Below are positions 3,625-15,031 of a DNA stretch of 64,000 bases, in pieces (position 1 is the stretch's first letter; every line of letters starts with the position of its first letter). The notes under the pieces are model-generated. The model had not been told where the DNA came from. It saw only the letters and a list, made by a program, of their open reading frames with translations, and searched no databases. Made by a program: the position numbers and the translations under genes. This DNA comes from Escherichia coli O127:H6 str. E2348/69 (GTDB lineage Bacteria; Pseudomonadota; Gammaproteobacteria; Enterobacterales; Enterobacteriaceae), in assembly GCF_000026545.1 (NCBI RefSeq), contig NC_011601.1; one strand, written 5' to 3'.

Positions 3625-6600
3625 GTGAAAGATTTATTAAAGTTTCTGAAAGCGCAGACTAAAACCGAAGAGTTTGATGCGATCAAAATTGCTCTGGCTT
3701 CGCCAGACATGATCCGTTCATGGTCTTTCGGTGAAGTTAAAAAGCCGGAAACCATCAACTACCGTACGTTCAAACCAGAACGTGACGGCCTTTTCTGCGC
3801 CCGTATCTTTGGGCCGGTAAAAGATTACGAGTGCCTGTGCGGTAAGTACAAGCGCCTGAAACACCGTGGCGTCATCTGTGAGAAGTGCGGCGTTGAAGTG
3901 ACCCAGACTAAAGTACGCCGTGAGCGTATGGGCCACATCGAACTGGCTTCCCCGACTGCGCACATCTGGTTCCTGAAATCGCTGCCGTCCCGTATCGGCC
4001 TGCTGCTCGATATGCCGCTGCGCGATATCGAACGTGTACTGTACTTCGAATCCTATGTGGTTATCGAAGGTGGTATGACCAACCTGGAGCGTCAGCAGAT
4101 CCTGACTGAAGAGCAGTATCTGGACGCGCTGGAAGAGTTCGGTGACGAATTCGACGCGAAGATGGGTGCGGAAGCAATCCAGGCCCTGCTGAAGAGCATG
4201 GATCTGGAGCAAGAGTGCGAACACCTGCGTGAAGAGCTGAACGAAACCAACTCCGAAACCAAGCGTAAAAAGCTGACCAAGCGTATCAAACTGCTGGAAG
4301 CGTTCGTTCAGTCTGGTAACAAACCAGAGTGGATGATCCTGACCGTTCTGCCGGTACTGCCGCCAGATCTGCGTCCGCTGGTTCCGCTGGATGGTGGTCG
4401 TTTCGCGACTTCTGACCTGAACGATCTGTATCGTCGCGTCATTAACCGTAACAACCGTCTGAAACGTCTGCTGGATCTGGCTGCGCCGGATATCATCGTA
4501 CGTAACGAAAAACGTATGCTGCAGGAAGCGGTAGACGCCCTGCTGGATAACGGTCGTCGCGGTCGTGCAATCACCGGTTCTAACAAGCGTCCTCTGAAAT
4601 CTTTGGCCGACATGATCAAAGGTAAACAGGGTCGTTTCCGTCAGAACCTGCTCGGTAAGCGTGTTGACTACTCCGGTCGTTCTGTCATCACCGTAGGTCC
4701 ATACCTGCGTCTGCATCAGTGCGGTCTGCCGAAGAAAATGGCGCTGGAGCTGTTCAAACCGTTCATCTACGGCAAGCTGGAACTGCGTGGTCTTGCTACC
4801 ACCATCAAAGCTGCGAAGAAAATGGTTGAGCGCGAAGAAGCTGTCGTTTGGGATATCCTGGACGAAGTTATCCGCGAACACCCGGTACTGCTGAACCGTG
4901 CACCGACTCTGCACCGTCTGGGTATCCAGGCATTTGAACCGGTACTGATCGAAGGTAAAGCTATCCAGCTGCACCCGCTGGTTTGTGCGGCATATAACGC
5001 CGACTTCGATGGTGACCAGATGGCTGTGCACGTACCGCTGACGCTGGAAGCCCAGCTGGAAGCGCGTGCGCTGATGATGTCTACCAACAACATCCTGTCC
5101 CCGGCGAACGGCGAACCAATCATCGTTCCGTCTCAGGACGTTGTACTGGGTCTGTACTACATGACCCGCGACTGTGTTAACGCCAAAGGCGAAGGCATGG
5201 TGCTGACTGGCCCGAAAGAAGCAGAACGTCTGTATCGCTCTGGTCTGGCTTCTCTGCATGCGCGCGTTAAAGTGCGTATCACCGAGTATGAAAAAGATGC
5301 TAACGGTGAATTAGTGGCGAAAACCAGCCTGAAAGACACGACTGTTGGCCGTGCCATTCTGTGGATGATTGTACCGAAAGGTCTGCCTTACACCATCGTC
5401 AACCAGGCGCTGGGTAAAAAAGCAATCTCCAAAATGCTGAACACCTGCTACCGCATTCTCGGTCTGAAACCGACCGTTATTTTTGCGGACCAGATCATGT
5501 ATACCGGCTTTGCATATGCAGCGCGTTCTGGTGCATCTGTTGGTATCGATGACATGGTCATCCCGGAGAAGAAACACGAAATCATCTCCGAGGCAGAAGC
5601 AGAAGTTGCTGAAATTCAGGAGCAGTTCCAGTCTGGTCTGGTAACTGCGGGCGAACGCTACAACAAAGTTATCGATATCTGGGCTGCGGCGAACGATCGT
5701 GTATCCAAAGCGATGATGGATAACCTGCAAACTGAAACCGTTATTAACCGTGACGGTCAGGAAGAGAAGCAGGTTTCCTTCAACAGCATCTACATGATGG
5801 CCGACTCCGGTGCGCGTGGTTCTGCGGCACAGATTCGTCAGCTTGCTGGTATGCGTGGTCTGATGGCGAAGCCGGATGGCTCCATCATCGAAACGCCAAT
5901 CACCGCGAACTTCCGTGAAGGTCTGAACGTACTCCAGTACTTCATCTCCACCCACGGTGCTCGTAAAGGTCTGGCGGATACCGCACTGAAAACGGCGAAC
6001 TCCGGTTACCTGACTCGTCGTCTGGTTGACGTGGCGCAGGACCTGGTGGTTACCGAAGACGATTGTGGTACCCATGAAGGTATCATGATGACTCCGGTTA
6101 TCGAGGGTGGTGACGTTAAAGAGCCGCTGCGCGATCGCGTACTGGGTCGTGTAACTGCTGAAGACGTTCTGAAGCCGGGTACTGCTGATATCCTCGTTCC
6201 GCGCAACACGCTGCTGCACGAACAGTGGTGTGACCTGCTGGAAGAGAACTCTGTCGACGCGGTTAAAGTACGTTCTGTTGTATCTTGTGACACCGACTTT
6301 GGTGTATGTGCGCACTGCTACGGTCGTGACCTGGCGCGTGGCCACCTCATCAACAAAGGTGAAGCAATCGGTGTTATCGCGGCACAGTCCATCGGTGAAC
6401 CGGGTACACAGCTGACCATGCGTACGTTCCACATCGGTGGTGCGGCATCTCGTGCGGCTGCTGAATCCAGCATCCAGGTGAAAAACAAAGGTAGCATCAA
6501 GCTCAGCAACGTGAAGTCGGTTGTGAACTCCAGCGGTAAACTGGTTATCACTTCCCGTAACACCGAACTGAAACTGATCGACGAATTCGGTCGTACCAAA

Positions 6601-7848
6601 GAAAGCTACAAAGTACCTTACGGTGCGGTACTGGCGAAAGGCGATGGCGAACAGGTTGCTGGCGGCGAAACCGTTGCAAACTGGGACCCGCACACCATGC
6701 CGGTTATCACCGAAGTAAGCGGTTTTGTACGCTTTACTGACATGATCGACGGCCAGACCATTACTCGTCAGACCGACGAATTGACCGGTCTGTCTTCGCT
6801 GGTGGTTCTGGATTCCGCAGAACGTACCGCAGGTGGTAAAGATCTGCGTCCGGCACTGAAAATCGTTGATGCTCAGGGTAACGACGTTCTGATCCCGGGT
6901 ACCGATATGCCTGCGCAGTACTTCCTGCCGGGTAAAGCGATTGTTCAGCTGGAAGATGGCGTACAGATCAGCTCTGGTGACACCCTGGCGCGTATTCCGC
7001 AGGAATCCGGCGGTACCAAGGACATCACCGGTGGTCTGCCGCGCGTTGCGGACCTGTTCGAAGCACGTCGTCCGAAAGAGCCGGCAATCCTGGCTGAAAT
7101 CAGCGGTATCGTTTCCTTCGGTAAAGAAACCAAAGGTAAACGTCGTCTGGTTATTACCCCGGTAGACGGTAGCGATCCGTACGAAGAGATGATTCCGAAA
7201 TGGCGTCAGCTCAACGTGTTCGAAGGTGAACGTGTAGAACGTGGTGACGTAATTTCCGACGGTCCGGAAGCGCCGCACGACATTCTGCGTCTGCGTGGTG
7301 TTCATGCTGTGACTCGTTACATCGTTAACGAAGTACAGGACGTATACCGTCTGCAGGGCGTTAAGATTAACGATAAACACATCGAAGTTATCGTTCGTCA
7401 GATGCTGCGTAAAGCTACCATCGTTAACGCGGGCAGCTCCGACTTCCTGGAAGGTGAACAGGTTGAATACTCTCGCGTCAAGATCGCAAACCGCGAACTG
7501 GAAGCGAACGGCAAAGTGGGTGCAACTTACTCCCGCGATCTGCTGGGTATCACCAAAGCGTCTCTGGCAACCGAGTCCTTCATCTCCGCGGCATCGTTCC
7601 AGGAGACCACTCGCGTGCTGACCGAAGCAGCCGTTGCGGGCAAACGCGACGAACTGCGCGGCCTGAAAGAGAACGTTATCGTGGGTCGTCTGATCCCGGC
7701 AGGTACCGGTTACGCGTACCACCAGGATCGTATGCGTCGCCGTGCTGCGGGTGAAGCTCCGGCTGCACCGCAGGTGACTGCAGAAGACGCATCTGCCAGC
7801 CTGGCAGAACTGCTGAACGCAGGTCTGGGCGGTTCTGATAACGAGTAA
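3625..7848 (+). CDS. rpoC: DNA-directed RNA polymerase beta' subunit
   Basis: 1407-codon ORF starting at GTG 3625 ([40 protein letters not shown]...), 76 bp after rpoB stop; zinc-binding CxxC motifs near N-terminus. Confidence 0.97.
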
Positions 7849-7870
7849 TCGTTAATCCGCAAATAACGTA

Positions 7871-7896
7871 AAAACCCGCTTCGGCGGGTTTTTTTA
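7871..7896 (+). terminator. rho-independent terminator after rpoC
   Basis: GC stem AAACCCGC-TTCG-GCGGGTTT followed by T-run (ttttttta) about 25 bp after the rpoC stop. Confidence 0.8.
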
Positions 7897-8089
7897 TGGG
7901 TGTTATTCAGAGGGCAAAGTCTTCACGGGAAATATTAAGAAAGGCAGGGCGAAACGAGGAAGAAGCTTTTCGCCCTGGACAACATTCCTGTTGACGGCGC
8001 TACCATAAAAAAACAAAACGCTTTCAACAACCTTGCGTTTTTCATCTTCCGTAGCGGCTCGGAATAAATTTACGTTCTTACATTCTGTC

Positions 8090-9223
8090 TCATGGCCTTT
8101 GCGATGGGCGTCCCAGATAGCTGTCCCAGTCTTTCCATACCGGCTGCAAACCCTGAGCGGTTAACGCGGCAGCAACCGCTTCCGGTCTGCGATCGTCGTG
8201 CGGTGAGAACTGTTCCAGCTCGGGGTGATTGTCGGCATAGCCACCTGGCTGCGTTTTCGAAAAAGCGCTGACGTTATTAATTGCCAGCGGAATAACACGA
8301 TCGCGAAACCACGGTGATTCCCGCGTGGAGAGTGACAGTTCAATATCCGGCGCAAGCAGCCGGAAGGCGCAGATGGTTTGCACTAACTGGCGTTCATCCA
8401 TAATCGACGCTGGCTCAATGCCGCCAGTACATGGACGCAGGCGTGGGAAGGAGACAGAATAACGGCTTTGCCAGTAATGCTGTTGCAGCCATAGCAAATG
8501 TTCGGCAACCATATAGCAGTCAACTCGCCAGCTGTCGGAAAGGCCAATTAGCGCGCCGAGGCCAATCTTATCAATCCCCGCACGGCCCAGCCGATCCGGC
8601 GTTTCCAGCCGCCAGAAGAAGTCCTGTTTTTTGCCTTTCAGATGATGGCGGGCATAAGTCGCCTCGTGATATGTCTCCTGATAAACCATCACGCCATCCA
8701 GACCAAGTTGCTTTAACTCGGCGTATTCCGTCTCCGCCAGCGGCTGTACTTCCATCTGTAGTGAAGAGAACTGTTCACGCAGGGCAGGGAGATGACGACG
8801 AAAGTAATCCATCCCCACTTTCACCTGATGTTCACCAGTGACTAAAAGCAGATGTTCAAAGCCCATCTCCCGTATAGCGGCGCTTTCCCTGGCAATATCC
8901 GCTTCATCCAGCGTTTTGCGCTTGATGCGATTGCTCATGGAAAATCCGCAGTACGTGCAGTCGTTAGCGCAAAGATTGGAAAGATAAAGCGGGACGTAGA
9001 AGCTGACGACGTTGCCAAATCGCTGACGGGTCAGACGCTGCGCCCGTTGGGCCAGTGGTTCCAGATAGCCACTGGCGGCGGGTGATAGCAATGCCATCAT
9101 GTCGTCGCGGGTGAGTTGCGAGGCATTTAGCGCCCGCTCTACGTCAGCAGCCGTTTTGCCGTTGATACGCAGGCGGATGTCATCCCAGTCCAGTTGTCGC
9201 CAGCGATCGCTGAAGGTTTTCAT
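8090..9223 (-). CDS. thiH: 2-iminoacetate synthase (thiazole biosynthesis, radical SAM tyrosine lyase)
   Basis: 377-aa [26 protein letters not shown]... with radical-[13 protein letters not shown] motif; last gene of the thi operon. Confidence 0.93.
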
Positions 9224-9990
9224 GCCGATGCCTCCAGAAATCCAGTCAGCGGGCTGGTGGCATGAGCAAAATGACTGCGACTGCCCGGTCCGGACTGACG
9301 TGCCAGCAGGCCTGCTTCTACCGCCAGACGAAATGCCTTCGCCATGTTGACGGGATCGTCCGCGACGGCAATCGCCGTATTCACTAACACCGCGTCGGCC
9401 CCCATTTCCAGCGCCTGCGCGGCATGGCTGGGAACGCCGATGCCAGCATCGACAACCACCGGAACGGTGGCCTGCTGGATAATAATCTCCAGCATGGCGC
9501 GGGTTTCCAGTCCCTGATTCGAGCCAATCGGCGCGCCGAGCGGCATCACCGCTGCACAGCCGACTTCTTCCAGACGTTTACACAATACCGGATCGGCCCC
9601 GCAGTAAGGCAGCACGACAAATCCCTGTTGTACCAGCGTTTCGGCGGCTTTCAGGGTTTCTATGGGGTCGGGCAACAGCCAGCGGGCGTCAGGGTGAATC
9701 TCCAATTTTAGCCAGTTTGTGCCTAACGCTTCACGTGCCAGATGGGCGGCGAAAATGGCTTCTTCCGCGGTTTTCGCCCCGGAAGTATTCGGCAGCAGGG
9801 TCACACCCGCCGCGATAAGCGGTTCGAGGATAGCGTCGTTGTGCTGGCGCAAGTCGACACGTTTCATCGCCAGCGTTACCAGTTGGCTGCCGGATGCGCG
9901 AATAGACTCCACCATCAGTTGTGAAGAGGCGAATTTTCCGGTGCCAGTAAACAGATGTGAATCAAACGTTTTGTCCGCAATATGTAACAT
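9220..9990 (-). CDS. thiG: thiazole synthase
   Basis: Track ORF 9220..10101 trimmed to internal ATG at 9988-9990 ([34 protein letters not shown]...), giving a 256-aa protein that abuts thiS; 4-bp overlap with thiH start. Confidence 0.9.
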
Positions 9991-9991
9991 C

Positions 9992-10192
9992 TCAACCCCC
10001 TGCAATAACTTGAAAAAGCAGGATCTGGTCGCCATCCTGCACGATATGTTGCGCCCATTGTTCCCGCGGGACGATTTGCTGATTAATCGCCAGTGCCGCA
10101 CCTGCTTGTTGTTGATCGAGTTGCTCCAGCAGTTCGTGAACAGTTAGTCCGGCGACACACTGCATCGGTTGATCGTTAAACAGGATCTGCAT
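9992..10192 (-). CDS. thiS: sulfur carrier protein ThiS
   Basis: 66-aa protein [31 protein letters not shown]...LLFQVIAGG with C-terminal Gly-Gly; track ORF trimmed to internal Met. Confidence 0.9.
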
Positions 10193-10931
10193 TGCATCCT
10201 CCACATACCGGGCAACCGCTGGCGCGGCGCAACGTCAGACTGCGCCACTGGCTCGATTTACCGTCGAACAGTCGGAGTTCTCCCGCAGGCGTCTCTATAC
10301 CACTTAATAACTTAATCGCTTCCAGTGCCTGTAAAGTGCCCATAACCCCGACCACCGGGCCAACCACGCCCACCGTGCGGCAGTTGCGTTCTGGCTCCTG
10401 GTTATCTGGCCACAGGCAGCGGTAACACCCCTGCTCCCAGGGCGGCGTCAGTACCATCAACTGACCGCCAAATCCGACCGCGCTGGCGGTGACAAGCGGC
10501 GTGTTGAGTGCCACGCAGGTGGCATTAATCTCCTGGCGAGTCGCCATATTGTCAGTACAGTCGAGCACCACATCGGCTTGTGCAACCGCATCTTTTAACG
10601 TCTCACCCGTTAATCGTTGTTGTAATGCCATCAGTTGAATGTCGGGATTCAACTGTGTCAGTCGCTGTTGGCTGACCTGTGATTTCGGGAGATCGATATC
10701 TTCAGTGGTAAAGAGGATTTGTCGTTGCAGATTGCTTAAATGCACATCGTCATCATCTGCCAGTACCAGCGTCCCGACGCCAGCCCCCGCCAGGTATAGC
10801 GCAGCAGGTGTACCCAGCCCGCCAAGACCAATAATCAGCACCTGGCTGTCGAGCAGTTTTTGCTGCCCGTCCAGAGCGATATCGTCGAGCAGGATTTGGC
10901 GGCTATAACGCATAAAGTCACGGTCATTCAT
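10176..10931 (-). CDS. thiF: ThiS adenylyltransferase (E1-like)
   Basis: 251-aa protein from internal Met ([27 protein letters not shown]...), ThiF/MoeB nucleotide-binding GLGGLG motif, C-terminal CxxC; overlaps thiS start. Confidence 0.9.
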
Positions 10932-11558
10932 CGCCAACTCCTGAAATTTCCAGCAACTGTGCCGTTGCCAAACGCCAGTCTGCGGCTTGAGTAATGGCGC
11001 TGACGACAGCGATACTGCCGACACCCGTTGCTATCACCGCAGGCGCGCGCGCCAGACTGATACCGCCAATCGCCACGGTGGGATAATCCGCCAGGCGCTC
11101 AACATGCCGTGCCAGCTGTTCCAGTCCCTGCGGTGCAGAAGGCATCTGTTTGGTTTGTGTCGGAAACACATGTCCCAGCGCGATATAAGAAGGACGTGCC
11201 GCCAGCGCGACGTCGATCTCCATATCGTCATGGGTCGAAACGCCCAGCCGCAGGCCTGCCGCGCGGATGGCGCTGAGATCGGTGGCTTGCAAATCTTCCT
11301 GCCCCAGATGGACGCCATACGCCTGATGCTTAATCGCCAGCCGCCAGTAATCGTTGATAAACAATCGCGCGTTATAGCGGCGGCCCAGCGCAATTGCCGC
11401 CACCACATCGGCTTCTACCTCTTCATCGCGCTGATCTTTGATGCGTAGCTGGAGAGTACGTACGCCTGCATCCAACAGACGTTCGATCCACTGTACGCTG
11501 TCAACCACCGGGTACAGTCCTAAACGAAAGGGTACAGGAGGAAACTCAGGCTGATACA

Positions 11559-11559
<1 letters not shown>
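10924..11559 (-). CDS. thiE: thiamine-phosphate synthase
   Basis: ORF (M)[42 protein letters not shown]...; start taken at second Met; overlaps thiF start and thiC stop. Confidence 0.92.
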
Positions 11560-13457
<1,898 letters not shown>

Positions 13458-13469
13458 TCATTCCAAAAA

Positions 13470-13640
13470 GTTAAGGACGTGGCTTGTCAGACGACGGATG
13501 AAGCAAGAGACGATCGCCGCAAAGGCGATGCGATAGCAGATTAACTCTTGTTCCCTTCGCAGGTATTAGCCTGATCAGGTTCCGCGGATCCCGAATAAAC
13601 GGTCTCAGCCAGTTAAGGCACTCCGACAAGAAATTAGCCC
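13470..13640 (-). promoter_or_regulatory. TPP riboswitch (thi-box) in thiC leader
   Basis: Minus-strand leader contains the conserved thi-box core CTGAGA (reverse complement ggtctcag at 13611-13618) followed by ...ACCUGAUC...GGCUAAUACC...GAAGGGAACAAG, immediately upstream of the thiC start. Confidence 0.85.
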
Positions 13641-13686
13641 CACAAACGGGGCGTTGAATGTAAATTACGCGTTAACAGCGCAGAAC

Positions 13687-14163
13687 TCAAGCAGGATATT
13701 TGACGCGGGCGGCGTCAAGCACCAGCAGAATCAGCTTATCTTCCAGCACAAAGCGCGCTTCCAGTGCCTCGCCGATGTCAGATAAAACCTGTTGAAACTC
13801 AAGGTAATTATCATGATCGATGGCGGTTTCCAGACTGGAATCGTAGTCATCCATAATCTGTTGAGTATTGGCTTCGAGTTGTGGCCAAATCTTCGCGGCG
13901 CGTGCGAGTTGCCCATTGCCTTCCAGCTTATGAAGAATGCGCTCATAAATACTGAAATGTCCGGCAGACAAGTAATCGACCAGGCTTTGACAAAAATCAT
14001 CAAGGGCTTTTTCGTTTAGCCTCATGTACGATTCTTTGCCAGGCTTAATGCCAACCAGATTGTAGTAAGCCACGAGCAGATGCTTACGTACATGTAGCCA
14101 GCGATAAACCAGTTTGTTACTTCCTCTGACGCGCTCCGTCAGGTTATCGAGCTGGTTAAGCAT
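13687..14163 (-). CDS. rsd: regulator of sigma D (anti-sigma70 factor)
   Basis: 158-aa ORF MLNQLDNLTERVRGSNKLVYRWLHVRKHLLVAYYNLVGIKP... recognised as Rsd. Confidence 0.93.
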   Translation of the reverse strand: MLNQLDNLTERVRGSNKLVYRWLHVRKHLLVAYYNLVGIKPGKESYMRLNEKALDDFCQSLVDYLSAGHFSIYERILHKLEGNGQLARAAKIWPQLEANTQQIMDDYDSSLETAIDHDNYLEFQQVLSDIGEALEARFVLEDKLILLVLDAARVKYPA

Positions 14164-14257
14164 GATTGACTCCGCAAGTTTGTATTCAAAAACTGCTCAG
14201 TGAGAAATGTAAAAACCATGTTAAACATGCCAGTGATGCAAAGGTAGTGCAAGAGCT

Positions 14258-15031
14258 ATGGATCGTATAATTGAAAAATTAGATCACGGCTGGTGGGTCG
14301 TCAGCCATGAACAAAAATTATGGTTGCCGAAGGGAGAATTGCCATATGGCGAAGCGGCAAATTTCGATCTTGTGGGTCAGCGCGCACTACAAATCGGCGA
14401 ATGGCAGGGGGAACCTGTTTGGTTAGTACAACTGCAGCGGCGTCACGATATGGGGTCGGTACGTCAGGTCATTGATCTCGATGTTGGGCTGTTTCAACTG
14501 GCCGGACGTGGCGTGCAACTGGCGGAGTTTTACCGATCGCATAAATACTGTGGTTACTGCGGGCATGAAATGTATCCAAGCAAAACTGAATGGGCGATGC
14601 TGTGCAGCCATTGCCGTGAGCGTTACTACCCGCAAATCGCCCCCTGCATTATTGTTGCCATCCGTCGCGATGATTCGATCCTCCTCGCCCAGCATACCCG
14701 CCATCGTAACGGTGTCCATACAGTACTTGCCGGATTCGTCGAAGTGGGTGAAACCCTCGAGCAGGCAGTCGCGCGGGAAGTGATGGAAGAGAGCGGAATT
14801 AAAGTTAAAAACTTGCGTTACGTGACCTCCCAACCGTGGCCGTTTCCTCAGTCTTTAATGACCGCGTTTATGGCGGAATATGACAGCGGCGAGATCGTGA
14901 TCGACCCGAAAGAATTGCTTGAGGCGAACTGGTATCGCTATGACGATTTGCCGTTACTCCCGCCGCCCGGCACCGTAGCGCGCCGTCTGATAGAAGATAC
15001 AGTGGCGATGTGTCGGGCAGAGTATGAGTGA
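14258..15031 (+). CDS. nudC: NADH pyrophosphatase (Nudix hydrolase)
   Basis: 257-aa ORF with zinc-ribbon [22 protein letters not shown] and Nudix box ([22 protein letters not shown]). Confidence 0.94.

What the first reader, a model, noticed from the sequence alone, without database searches (positions are those of the whole stretch)
7849..8089. No yjaZ/htrC gene between rpoC and thiH
Only 241 bp separate the rpoC stop from the thiH stop, and no ORF of appreciable size is present on either strand. In the K-12 order as I recall it, a roughly 180-codon gene (yjaZ/htrC) lies here. The spacer contains the rpoC terminator and an imperfect inverted repeat (CAGGGCGAAA…TTTCGCCCTGG, about 7945-7978) that could mark a deletion scar or serve as a thiH-side terminator.
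Basis: partly seen in the sequence, partly recalled or inferred. Interest (0 to 1): 0.3.

Follow-up and report, generated by a model that had tools for sequence, protein, structure and literature searches.

The report
Lineage-specific deletion of yjaZ and sroH
This E. coli strain (EPEC E2348/69) lacks the 0.95-kb piece holding the gene yjaZ and the small RNA sroH that K-12 carries between rpoC and thiH. It is an ordinary deletion shared by about 30% of complete E. coli genomes, the sroH part is already documented, and both neighbouring terminators are intact.

Summary
The rpoC stop (7848) and the thiH stop (8090, minus strand) are 241 bp apart, with no ORF over 43 aa.

- **What is missing.** The window is 100% identical to E. 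coli E2348/69. K-12 has a 1161-bp spacer with yjaZ (179 aa) and also the sRNA gene sroH. A 947-bp, 41.5%-GC K-12 segment is replaced here by 27 bp (7901-7927).
- **How common.** The short allele is in 1629 of 5426 complete E. coli genomes; the K-12 segment is in 3741.
- **Direction of change.** E69, a genome outside all 5420 matched E. coli (at most 96.0% identity), has the long form at the same site, with intact yjaZ (dN/dS 0.19) and 98.8%-conserved sroH. The short form is therefore a deletion.
- **No second copy.** None is in the window or elsewhere on the E2348/69 chromosome.
- **The inverted repeat (7945-7977) is not the scar.** It is identical in long and short alleles and conserved in two other enterobacterial lineages with one compensatory pair. 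Published Term-seq in K-12 places a strong minus-strand RNA 3' end right after it, so it is the thiH-side terminator or 3'-end hairpin.
- **Prior knowledge.** Loss of sroH in phylogroups B2+D was reported in 2012.

Ordinary and already known; low interest.

The parts
3625..7848 (+). rpoC (1407 aa), left border of the spacer
   Evidence: ORF list; RefSeq annotation of the identical E2348/69 stretch
7870..7897 (+). rpoC intrinsic terminator: 10-bp stem AAAAACCCGC/GCGGGTTTTT, UUCG loop, T-run. It is palindromic, so it also reads as a terminator on the minus strand.
   Evidence: Inverted repeat I1. Fold -15.5 kcal/mol, z = -4.4. Minus-strand terminator-like site. 7849-7900 is 100% identical to K-12.
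7901..7927 (.). Deletion junction: 27 bp standing in place of the 947-bp K-12 segment (L001 802-1748) that carries the yjaZ promoter, yjaZ, the shared bidirectional terminator and sroH with its promoter
   Evidence: blastn breakpoints; multiple alignment of long, intermediate and short alleles
7907..7919 (+). Probable yjaZ remnant TCAGAGGGCAAAG (13/14 match to yjaZ codons ~35-39, L001 1063-1076)
   Evidence: It is the best local alignment of the 27-mer to the K-12 and E69 segments; 11 of 500 shuffles score as well. In strain HH45, 45 bp of yjaZ end at the same nucleotide and continue into the same right-hand junction.
7939..7977 (-). Conserved hairpin CAGGGCGAAA/UUUCGCCCUG plus CCUUUCUU tail on the thiH strand: thi-operon-side terminator or 3'-end hairpin. 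The expected RNA 3' end is at about 7939-7940.
   Evidence: I2 perfect 10-bp arms. Minus-strand fold z = -3.2. Identical in all long and short E. coli alleles sampled, and conserved with an A-U to G-C compensatory pair in L029 and L092. Term-seq 3' end at MG1655 4190584 (-) with exactly this sequence.
8015..8041 (-). Second, A/U-rich hairpin AAAACGC/GCGUUUU followed by a U7 run, 45-75 nt after the thiH stop. A possible weak terminator; role uncertain.
   Evidence: I4. The fold of 7990-8089 is not better than shuffles, z = -0.02. The listed rows show no curated Term-seq 3' end between 4190584 and 4196185/6 in MG1655.
8090..9223 (-). thiH (377 aa), right border of the spacer
   Evidence: ORF list; annotation

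Best explanation
The window is E. coli E2348/69 (phylogroup B2, from established knowledge). Its 241-bp rpoC-thiH spacer is a deletion allele. An ancestral ~1.16-kb spacer of the K-12 type carried yjaZ (plus strand) and the sRNA gene sroH (minus strand) back to back between two outward-facing terminators. About 0.95 kb was lost by illegitimate recombination, that is, without long flanking repeats. What remains is a 27-bp junction that still holds a ~13-nt yjaZ fragment. The cut falls just after the rpoC terminator and about 12 nt beyond the RNA 3' end of the thiH-side hairpin. Both flanking operons therefore keep their terminators, now roughly 40-50 bp apart and convergent. The only functional consequence is loss of YjaZ and SroH. 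The allele is old and common, and it also occurs next to K-12-identical thiH sequence, so it moves between lineages by homologous recombination. Shown: absence, breakpoints, distribution, presence in an outgroup, and the terminator identity of the hairpin in K-12. Inferred: the deletion mechanism, a single origin, and the spread by recombination.
For: The window is 100% identical to E2348/69. K-12 has yjaZ at L001 962-1501 and sroH at 1663-1503 (Rfam RF00372, 201 bits). K-12 802-1748 (947 bp) is replaced by window 7901-7927, with flanks 100% and ~95% identical. The short allele with the same junction is in 1629 of 5426 complete genomes; the K-12 segment is in 3741. For polarity, E69 is at most 96.0% identical to any of the 5420 matched E. 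coli. Its rpoC 3' end is 96.4-96.7% identical to both K-12 and the window, which are 99.5% identical to each other. E69 carries the long form at the same site, with yjaZ 91.3% identical in nucleotides (dN/dS 0.19) and sroH 98.8% identical. A yjaZ remnant sits in the junction, and the HH45 allele keeps 45 bp of yjaZ with the same junction ends. No other copy is in the window or on the E2348/69 chromosome. Other lineages show independent decay of yjaZ: a 71-bp deletion in O157:H7 (147-aa 'HtrC'), a frameshift in L142, and IS1 or IS2 insertions. Literature: sroH was inferred lost in B2+D (PMC3318445). A Term-seq 3' end lies at the hairpin (PMC7815308). L126 has the short allele beside a thiH stretch 611/611 identical to K-12.
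Against: The yjaZ remnant alone is weak: 13/14 nt, and about 2% of shuffles do as well. The HH45 'intermediate' is a singleton among 5426 genomes, and it could be a secondary rearrangement rather than a true intermediate. Only one outgroup genome was obtained. The low GC of the segment and the plasmid-borne relatives of YjaZ show that the segment was itself once acquired. 'Ancestral' therefore holds only back to the common ancestor with E69.
Confidence: 0.9

Rival explanations
1. The short spacer is the ancestral state, and K-12-type strains gained a 947-bp yjaZ-sroH cassette by insertion between the two terminators.
For: The segment has 41.5% GC against 52.6% for the window. YjaZ-family genes (PF27200) sit on 559 plasmids, 288 of them conjugative, and next to transposases, resolvases and umuD-like genes. 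Other Enterobacteriaceae hold quite different genes in this interval.
Against: E69, which lies outside all sampled E. coli, has the long form at exactly the same site, and its divergence is scaled to the flanks. The junction of the short form contains a yjaZ fragment. A published parsimony analysis infers loss, not gain, for sroH. An acquisition may well have happened, but before the E. coli/E69 split, so it does not explain the short allele.
Confidence: 0.06
2. Assembly or sequencing artefact: the gene is present in the strain but collapsed out of the sequence.
For: None found.
Against: An identical 1201-bp stretch occurs in several independent O127:H6/E2348/69 assemblies. The same junction occurs in 1629 complete genomes from many laboratories.
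Confidence: 0.01
3. yjaZ and sroH were translocated rather than lost, and reside elsewhere in the E2348/69 genome.
For: A few E. coli records carry yjaZ-like DNA on plasmids (5 plasmid places; 23 Escherichia plasmids).
Against: The E2348/69 chromosome shows only the rpoC-thiH place for a query that included yjaZ and sroH, in blastn distant mode. Nothing is in the 64-kb window. sroH was reported absent from E2348/69 by BLAST.
Confidence: 0.02

Closest known systems
E. coli K-12 MG1655 rpoC-yjaZ-sroH-thiH locus (b3988-b3990)
   Same: The rpoC 3' end, the rpoC terminator and the first 52 bp of the spacer are identical. The last 162 bp of the spacer (the thiH-side hairpins) are 156/162 identical.
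   Different: 947 bp holding yjaZ and sroH are replaced by 27 bp.
sroH phyletic pattern in Skippington & Ragan 2012 (PMC3318445)
   Same: sroH is reported missing from B2+D strains, E2348/69 among them, and the pattern is inferred as secondary loss.
   Different: The one passage I read lists only sRNA gains and losses. It gives no breakpoints, does not mention the co-deleted yjaZ, and says nothing about retention of both terminators. The rest of the paper was not read.
O157:H7 'protein HtrC' allele and other decayed yjaZ alleles
   Same: The same locus, and the same trend of yjaZ inactivation within E. coli.
   Different: Those alleles keep sroH and most of yjaZ (a 71-bp deletion, a frameshift, or an IS insertion). 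Here the whole module is gone.

Membership tests
YjaZ family (NCBIfam NF007263 equivalog; Pfam PF27200) | An ORF whose product matches the YjaZ profile | tested here: not met
   K-12 YjaZ scores 430 bits on NF007263. tblastn of YjaZ against the window gives nothing better than E = 0.28. No ORF over 43 aa lies in the spacer.
sroH sRNA (Rfam RF00372) | A match to the covariance model at or above the gathering score (80 bits) | tested here: not met
   K-12 and O157 score 201 bits. Window 7000-14500 has no sroH hit even at E <= 1. blastn of the K-12 segment against the whole window finds nothing.
Rho-independent terminator (rpoC) | A G+C-rich stem-loop followed by a U-run directly after the gene | tested here: met
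   10-bp stem, UUCG loop, T7 run at 7870-7897, 22 nt after the stop. Identical to K-12.
thiH-side terminator or 3'-end hairpin | A stable stem-loop on the thiH strand with a U-rich tail | tested here: met
   10-bp perfect stem, z = -3.2, tail CCUUUCUU.
thiH-side terminator or 3'-end hairpin | An RNA 3' end mapped at its base | tested here: met
   Met for K-12 only. A Term-seq 3' end at 4190584 (-) is listed with the identical hairpin sequence under two of the three growth conditions. It has not been measured in E2348/69.
thiH-side terminator or 3'-end hairpin | The structure conserved across species with covariation | tested here: inconclusive
   Only two sequences from outside Escherichia are available (L029, L092). 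The stem is kept with one A-U to G-C double change, but the U-rich tail is not conserved there.
Common E. coli short rpoC-thiH allele | The same left and right junctions as other short alleles | tested here: met
   Nine sampled short alleles share GGGTGTTATTCAGAGGGCAAA(G/T)TCTTCAC. 1629 genomes cover at least 80% of the 241-bp spacer in one piece.

The most novel reading that the evidence does not exclude
The yjaZ-sroH module is a formerly mobile cassette lodged between two convergent terminators. YjaZ relatives are common on conjugative plasmids. Its clean loss is not neutral decay but is favoured in some lineages (B2/D, including ExPEC and EPEC), and it is spread into other backgrounds by homologous recombination, as in strain MSB1_9D, where the short allele sits beside K-12-identical thiH.
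Probability: 0.12. Interest if true: 0.25.

Novelty: already known. Interest (0 to 1): 0.07.

Why it matters
It matters little. It is a routine presence/absence polymorphism of a poorly characterised accessory gene and a small RNA of unknown function. It is useful as an annotation note: E2348/69 and about 30% of E. coli lack both YjaZ and SroH, so K-12 results on these two genes (stationary-phase competition, envelope-stress sensitivity of an sroH mutant) do not transfer to B2/D strains. It also shows that the hairpin at 7945-7977 is the thi-operon-side 3'-end element, which curated Term-seq tables list only as an 'orphan' 3' end.

Tried and rejected
1. Deletion between short direct repeats. 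GAATATTTAAGGAA at the left end of the K-12 segment resembles GAATTTTTAAGAAA at the right end. I rejected this. The window's GAAATATTAAG is a derived variant, since other short alleles (L128, L132) have the K-12-like GGAATTTTTAAG. The 27-mer also aligns only about 45% by eye with the left end of the long form.

2. A small inversion (GACTTTGC to GCAAAGTC) of the K-12 right flank as the origin of the 27-mer. This is less well supported than the yjaZ remnant, because HH45 continues the yjaZ homology for 45 bp into the same junction.

3. The genome-contig scan with the 30-nt rpoC terminator, meant to fetch outgroup loci.

4. HH45 as a population-level intermediate. It is a singleton, so I use it only as supporting evidence.

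5. The local Pfam copy has no model for YjaZ. PHROGs and PDB sequence searches were also empty.

6. The 37-bp HH45-specific filler has no convincing source: only short 13-26-nt chance-level matches (E from 3e-4 to 3e-3) in unrelated loci.

7. Dar & Sorek Term-seq supplements are not held.

Full report
**Observation.** The window matches E. coli E2348/69 (NZ_CP059840.2) at 100% over 7400-8600. rpoC is the 1407-aa ORF ending at 7848, and thiH the 377-aa minus-strand ORF whose stop codon begins at 8090. The spacer 7849-8089 is therefore 241 bp, as stated. The ORFs overlapping it are 32, 37, 36 and 43 aa. The 32-aa ORF that crosses the junction is broken by a 1-bp indel in other strains with the same short allele. 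The rpoC terminator (7870-7893 plus T-run) and the inverted repeat (perfect 10-nt arms at 7945-7954 and 7968-7977) are both present.

**Comparison with K-12.** In MG1655 the rpoC-thiH spacer is 1161 bp and contains yjaZ (179 aa, plus strand). An Rfam scan also places the sRNA gene sroH (RF00372, 201 bits) on the minus strand immediately downstream of yjaZ, the two sharing a bidirectional terminator. blastn gives the breakpoints. Window 7700-7900 equals K-12 L001 601-801 at 100%. Window 7928-8300 equals L001 1749-2121 at 95.4%. Between them, 947 bp of K-12 (L001 802-1748) correspond to 27 bp of the window (7901-7927). The missing piece holds the yjaZ promoter region, yjaZ, the shared terminator and all of sroH with its upstream region. 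No sroH or yjaZ signal exists elsewhere in the window. I also ran a blastn search in distant mode with a chimeric query: the window locus plus reverse-complemented yjaZ-sroH. It returns a single place on the E2348/69 chromosome, the rpoC-thiH locus itself.

**How common it is.** Among 5426 complete E. coli genomes, 1629 cover at least 80% of the 241-bp spacer in one piece, which is the short allele. The K-12 segment matches 3741 genomes. Nine short alleles sampled across the identity range all have the same junction, differing by a few SNPs or one indel. The carriers include O25b:H4-ST131, a B2 clone by established knowledge. One of them, MSB1_9D (L126), has the short allele next to a thiH stretch that is 611/611 identical to K-12. 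The allele is therefore not strictly clonal and has probably been moved by homologous recombination.

**Direction of change.** The genome deposited as 'E. coli E69' (CP089930.1) represents its own GTDB species in the one-genome-per-species collection. No complete E. coli genome is more than 96.0% identical to its locus. Its rpoC 3' end is 96.4-96.7% identical to both K-12 and the window, which are 99.5% identical to each other. It lies outside the K-12/B2 split, yet it carries the long form at exactly the same site. Its yjaZ is intact and 91.3% identical in nucleotides, with dN/dS 0.19. Its sroH is 98.8% identical. The long form thus predates E. coli diversification, and the short form is derived.

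Two weaker lines agree.
- The best local match of the 27-mer anywhere in the long segment is TCA-GAGGGCAAAG against yjaZ TCATGAGGGCAAAG; 11 of 500 shuffles do as well.
- Strain HH45 has a 304-bp spacer that keeps 45 bp of yjaZ. That fragment ends at this same nucleotide and runs into the same right-hand junction, and HH45 shares the GGTTAT left junction.

HH45 is a singleton, so I treat it as support only. yjaZ is also decaying elsewhere. O157:H7 has a 71-bp deletion giving a 147-aa 'HtrC'. L142 has a frameshift. IS1 and IS2 insertions occur. Many truncated variants sit in the protein database. No long direct repeats flank the deletion, so I infer illegitimate recombination, but this is not shown.

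**The inverted repeat.** It is not the scar. It lies inside sequence shared with K-12 (L001 1766-1798) and is identical in every long and short E. coli allele examined. It is also present about 150 nt past thiH in two other enterobacterial lineages (L029, and the Enterobacter-like contig L092), which differ in what follows it. There the stem is kept through an A-U to G-C double change. On the thiH strand it folds with z = -3.2 and is followed by CCUUUCUU. The curated Term-seq table of Adams et al. 2021 (PMC7815308, Suppl. file 1) lists a strong 'orphan' 3' end at MG1655 4190584 (-). The sequence given there is ...CCAGGGCGAAAAGCTTCTTCCTCGTTTCGCCCTGCCTTT, and the intensity is comparable to the sroH 3' end. 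This maps to window 7939-7940. Whether the 3' end comes from intrinsic termination or from a processing-protected end is not resolved, because the U-rich tail is not conserved in the other lineages. A second A/U-rich hairpin with a U7 run (8015-8041) is closer to thiH. It does not fold better than shuffles, and the listed rows show no curated 3' end between 4190584 and 4196185/6.

**Net picture.** The deletion removed everything between the rpoC terminator and the thiH-side 3'-end hairpin. The two convergent terminators are left roughly 40-50 bp apart and intact. The expected consequence is limited to loss of YjaZ and SroH. YjaZ is named 'stationary phase growth adaptation protein' (NF007263), and its original HtrC function has been retracted (PMC11551758). 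SroH has no known function. Its deletion mutant is reported sensitive to envelope stress (PMC5389530), and kbl is a target confirmed by gel-shift binding assay (PMC6172242).

**What is already known.** Skippington & Ragan 2012 list sroH as lost in 'B2 + D', in E. coli ATCC 8739, in S. flexneri and in S. sonnei 046. They conclude that secondary loss dominates sRNA variation, and they single out E2348/69 as a lineage with many sRNA losses (PMC3318445). The present finding is the same event seen from the yjaZ side. It is an ordinary, already documented polymorphism. I add the exact breakpoints, the frequency in current genomes, outgroup support for polarity, and the identification of the hairpin.

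**Origin of the segment (background).** The 947-bp segment has 41.5% GC against 52.6% for the window. YjaZ-family proteins (PF27200) occur on 559 PLSDB plasmids, 288 of them conjugative. In chromosomes and plasmids of other genera they sit next to Tn3 and IS1 transposases, resolvases, umuDC-like genes and HigB toxins. Other Enterobacteriaceae carry different genes between rpoC and thiH: PTS cellobiose-type IIA and IIB, and a dCache-GGDEF cyclase. The interval is a variable spot, and the yjaZ-sroH module was probably acquired before the E. coli/E69 split. This is inference.

Noticed in passing
window 7868-7897 (rpoC terminator); loci L004-L123: The exact 30-mer AAAAACCCGCTTCGGCGGGTTTTTTTATGG is not unique to rpoC. 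Only about nine hits are at rpoC. Many enterobacterial hits are downstream of rpsI, and E. coli itself carries the identical terminator after rpsI. Others follow unrelated genes in Pseudomonas, Marinobacter, Rhodoferax and other genera, with no flank similarity. Often the repeat extends to a 16-nt-arm palindrome, CCATAAAAAAACCCGC-TTCG-GCGGGTTTTTTTATGG. It looks like convergent reuse of one optimal UUCG-tetraloop bidirectional terminator.
   Followed up: partly
L124 (E. coli HH45) 1411-1714: A unique 304-bp spacer allele: 45 bp of yjaZ, preceded by about 37 bp of filler with no convincing source (only short chance-level matches in unrelated loci), with the same outer junctions as the common short allele. 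It is a singleton among 5426 genomes.
   Followed up: partly
L126 (E. coli MSB1_9D) 550-790: The short allele lies beside a thiH stretch 611/611 identical to K-12 and a K-12-type RpoC protein. This suggests transfer of the deletion allele, or of its flank, by homologous recombination between phylogroups.
   Followed up: partly
L042 (genome deposited as E. coli E69, CP089930.1): No complete E. coli genome is more than 96.0% identical to this locus, and its rpoC 3' end differs by about 3.4% with dN/dS 0.04. The genome is probably a non-coli Escherichia labelled as E. coli. sroH is 98.8% conserved there, while the adjacent yjaZ is only 91.3%.
   Followed up: partly
L133-L140; PLSDB hits H172-H200: YjaZ-family (PF27200) genes are widespread on plasmids of Klebsiella, Enterobacter, Serratia, Pseudomonas and Vibrio, and lie next to transposases, resolvases and umuD-like genes. 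Relatives about 50% identical occur even in cyanobacteria. The family has no solved structure and no known biochemical function.
   Followed up: partly
L029, L092, L113, L117 (other Enterobacteriaceae), rpoC-thiH interval: Instead of yjaZ and sroH, these lineages carry PTS lactose/cellobiose-type IIA and IIB genes and, in some, a dCache-GGDEF diguanylate cyclase (degraded in L092). The interval ranges from 0.75 to 2.9 kb. L092 is an Enterobacter-like contig inside an assembly labelled Chryseobacterium, so it is likely contamination.
   Followed up: partly
window 13535-13635 (-): TPP riboswitch (RF00059, 74.8 bits) at the head of the thi operon, as expected upstream of thiC.
   Followed up: no
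window 7957-7966 (loop of the conserved hairpin): The hairpin loop is a conserved polypyrimidine run on the thiH strand: CUUCUUCCUC in E. coli, and UUCUUCCUCU and UUCCUCCCCC in two other enterobacterial lineages. This resembles an anti-Shine-Dalgarno sequence. Its significance is unknown.
   Followed up: no
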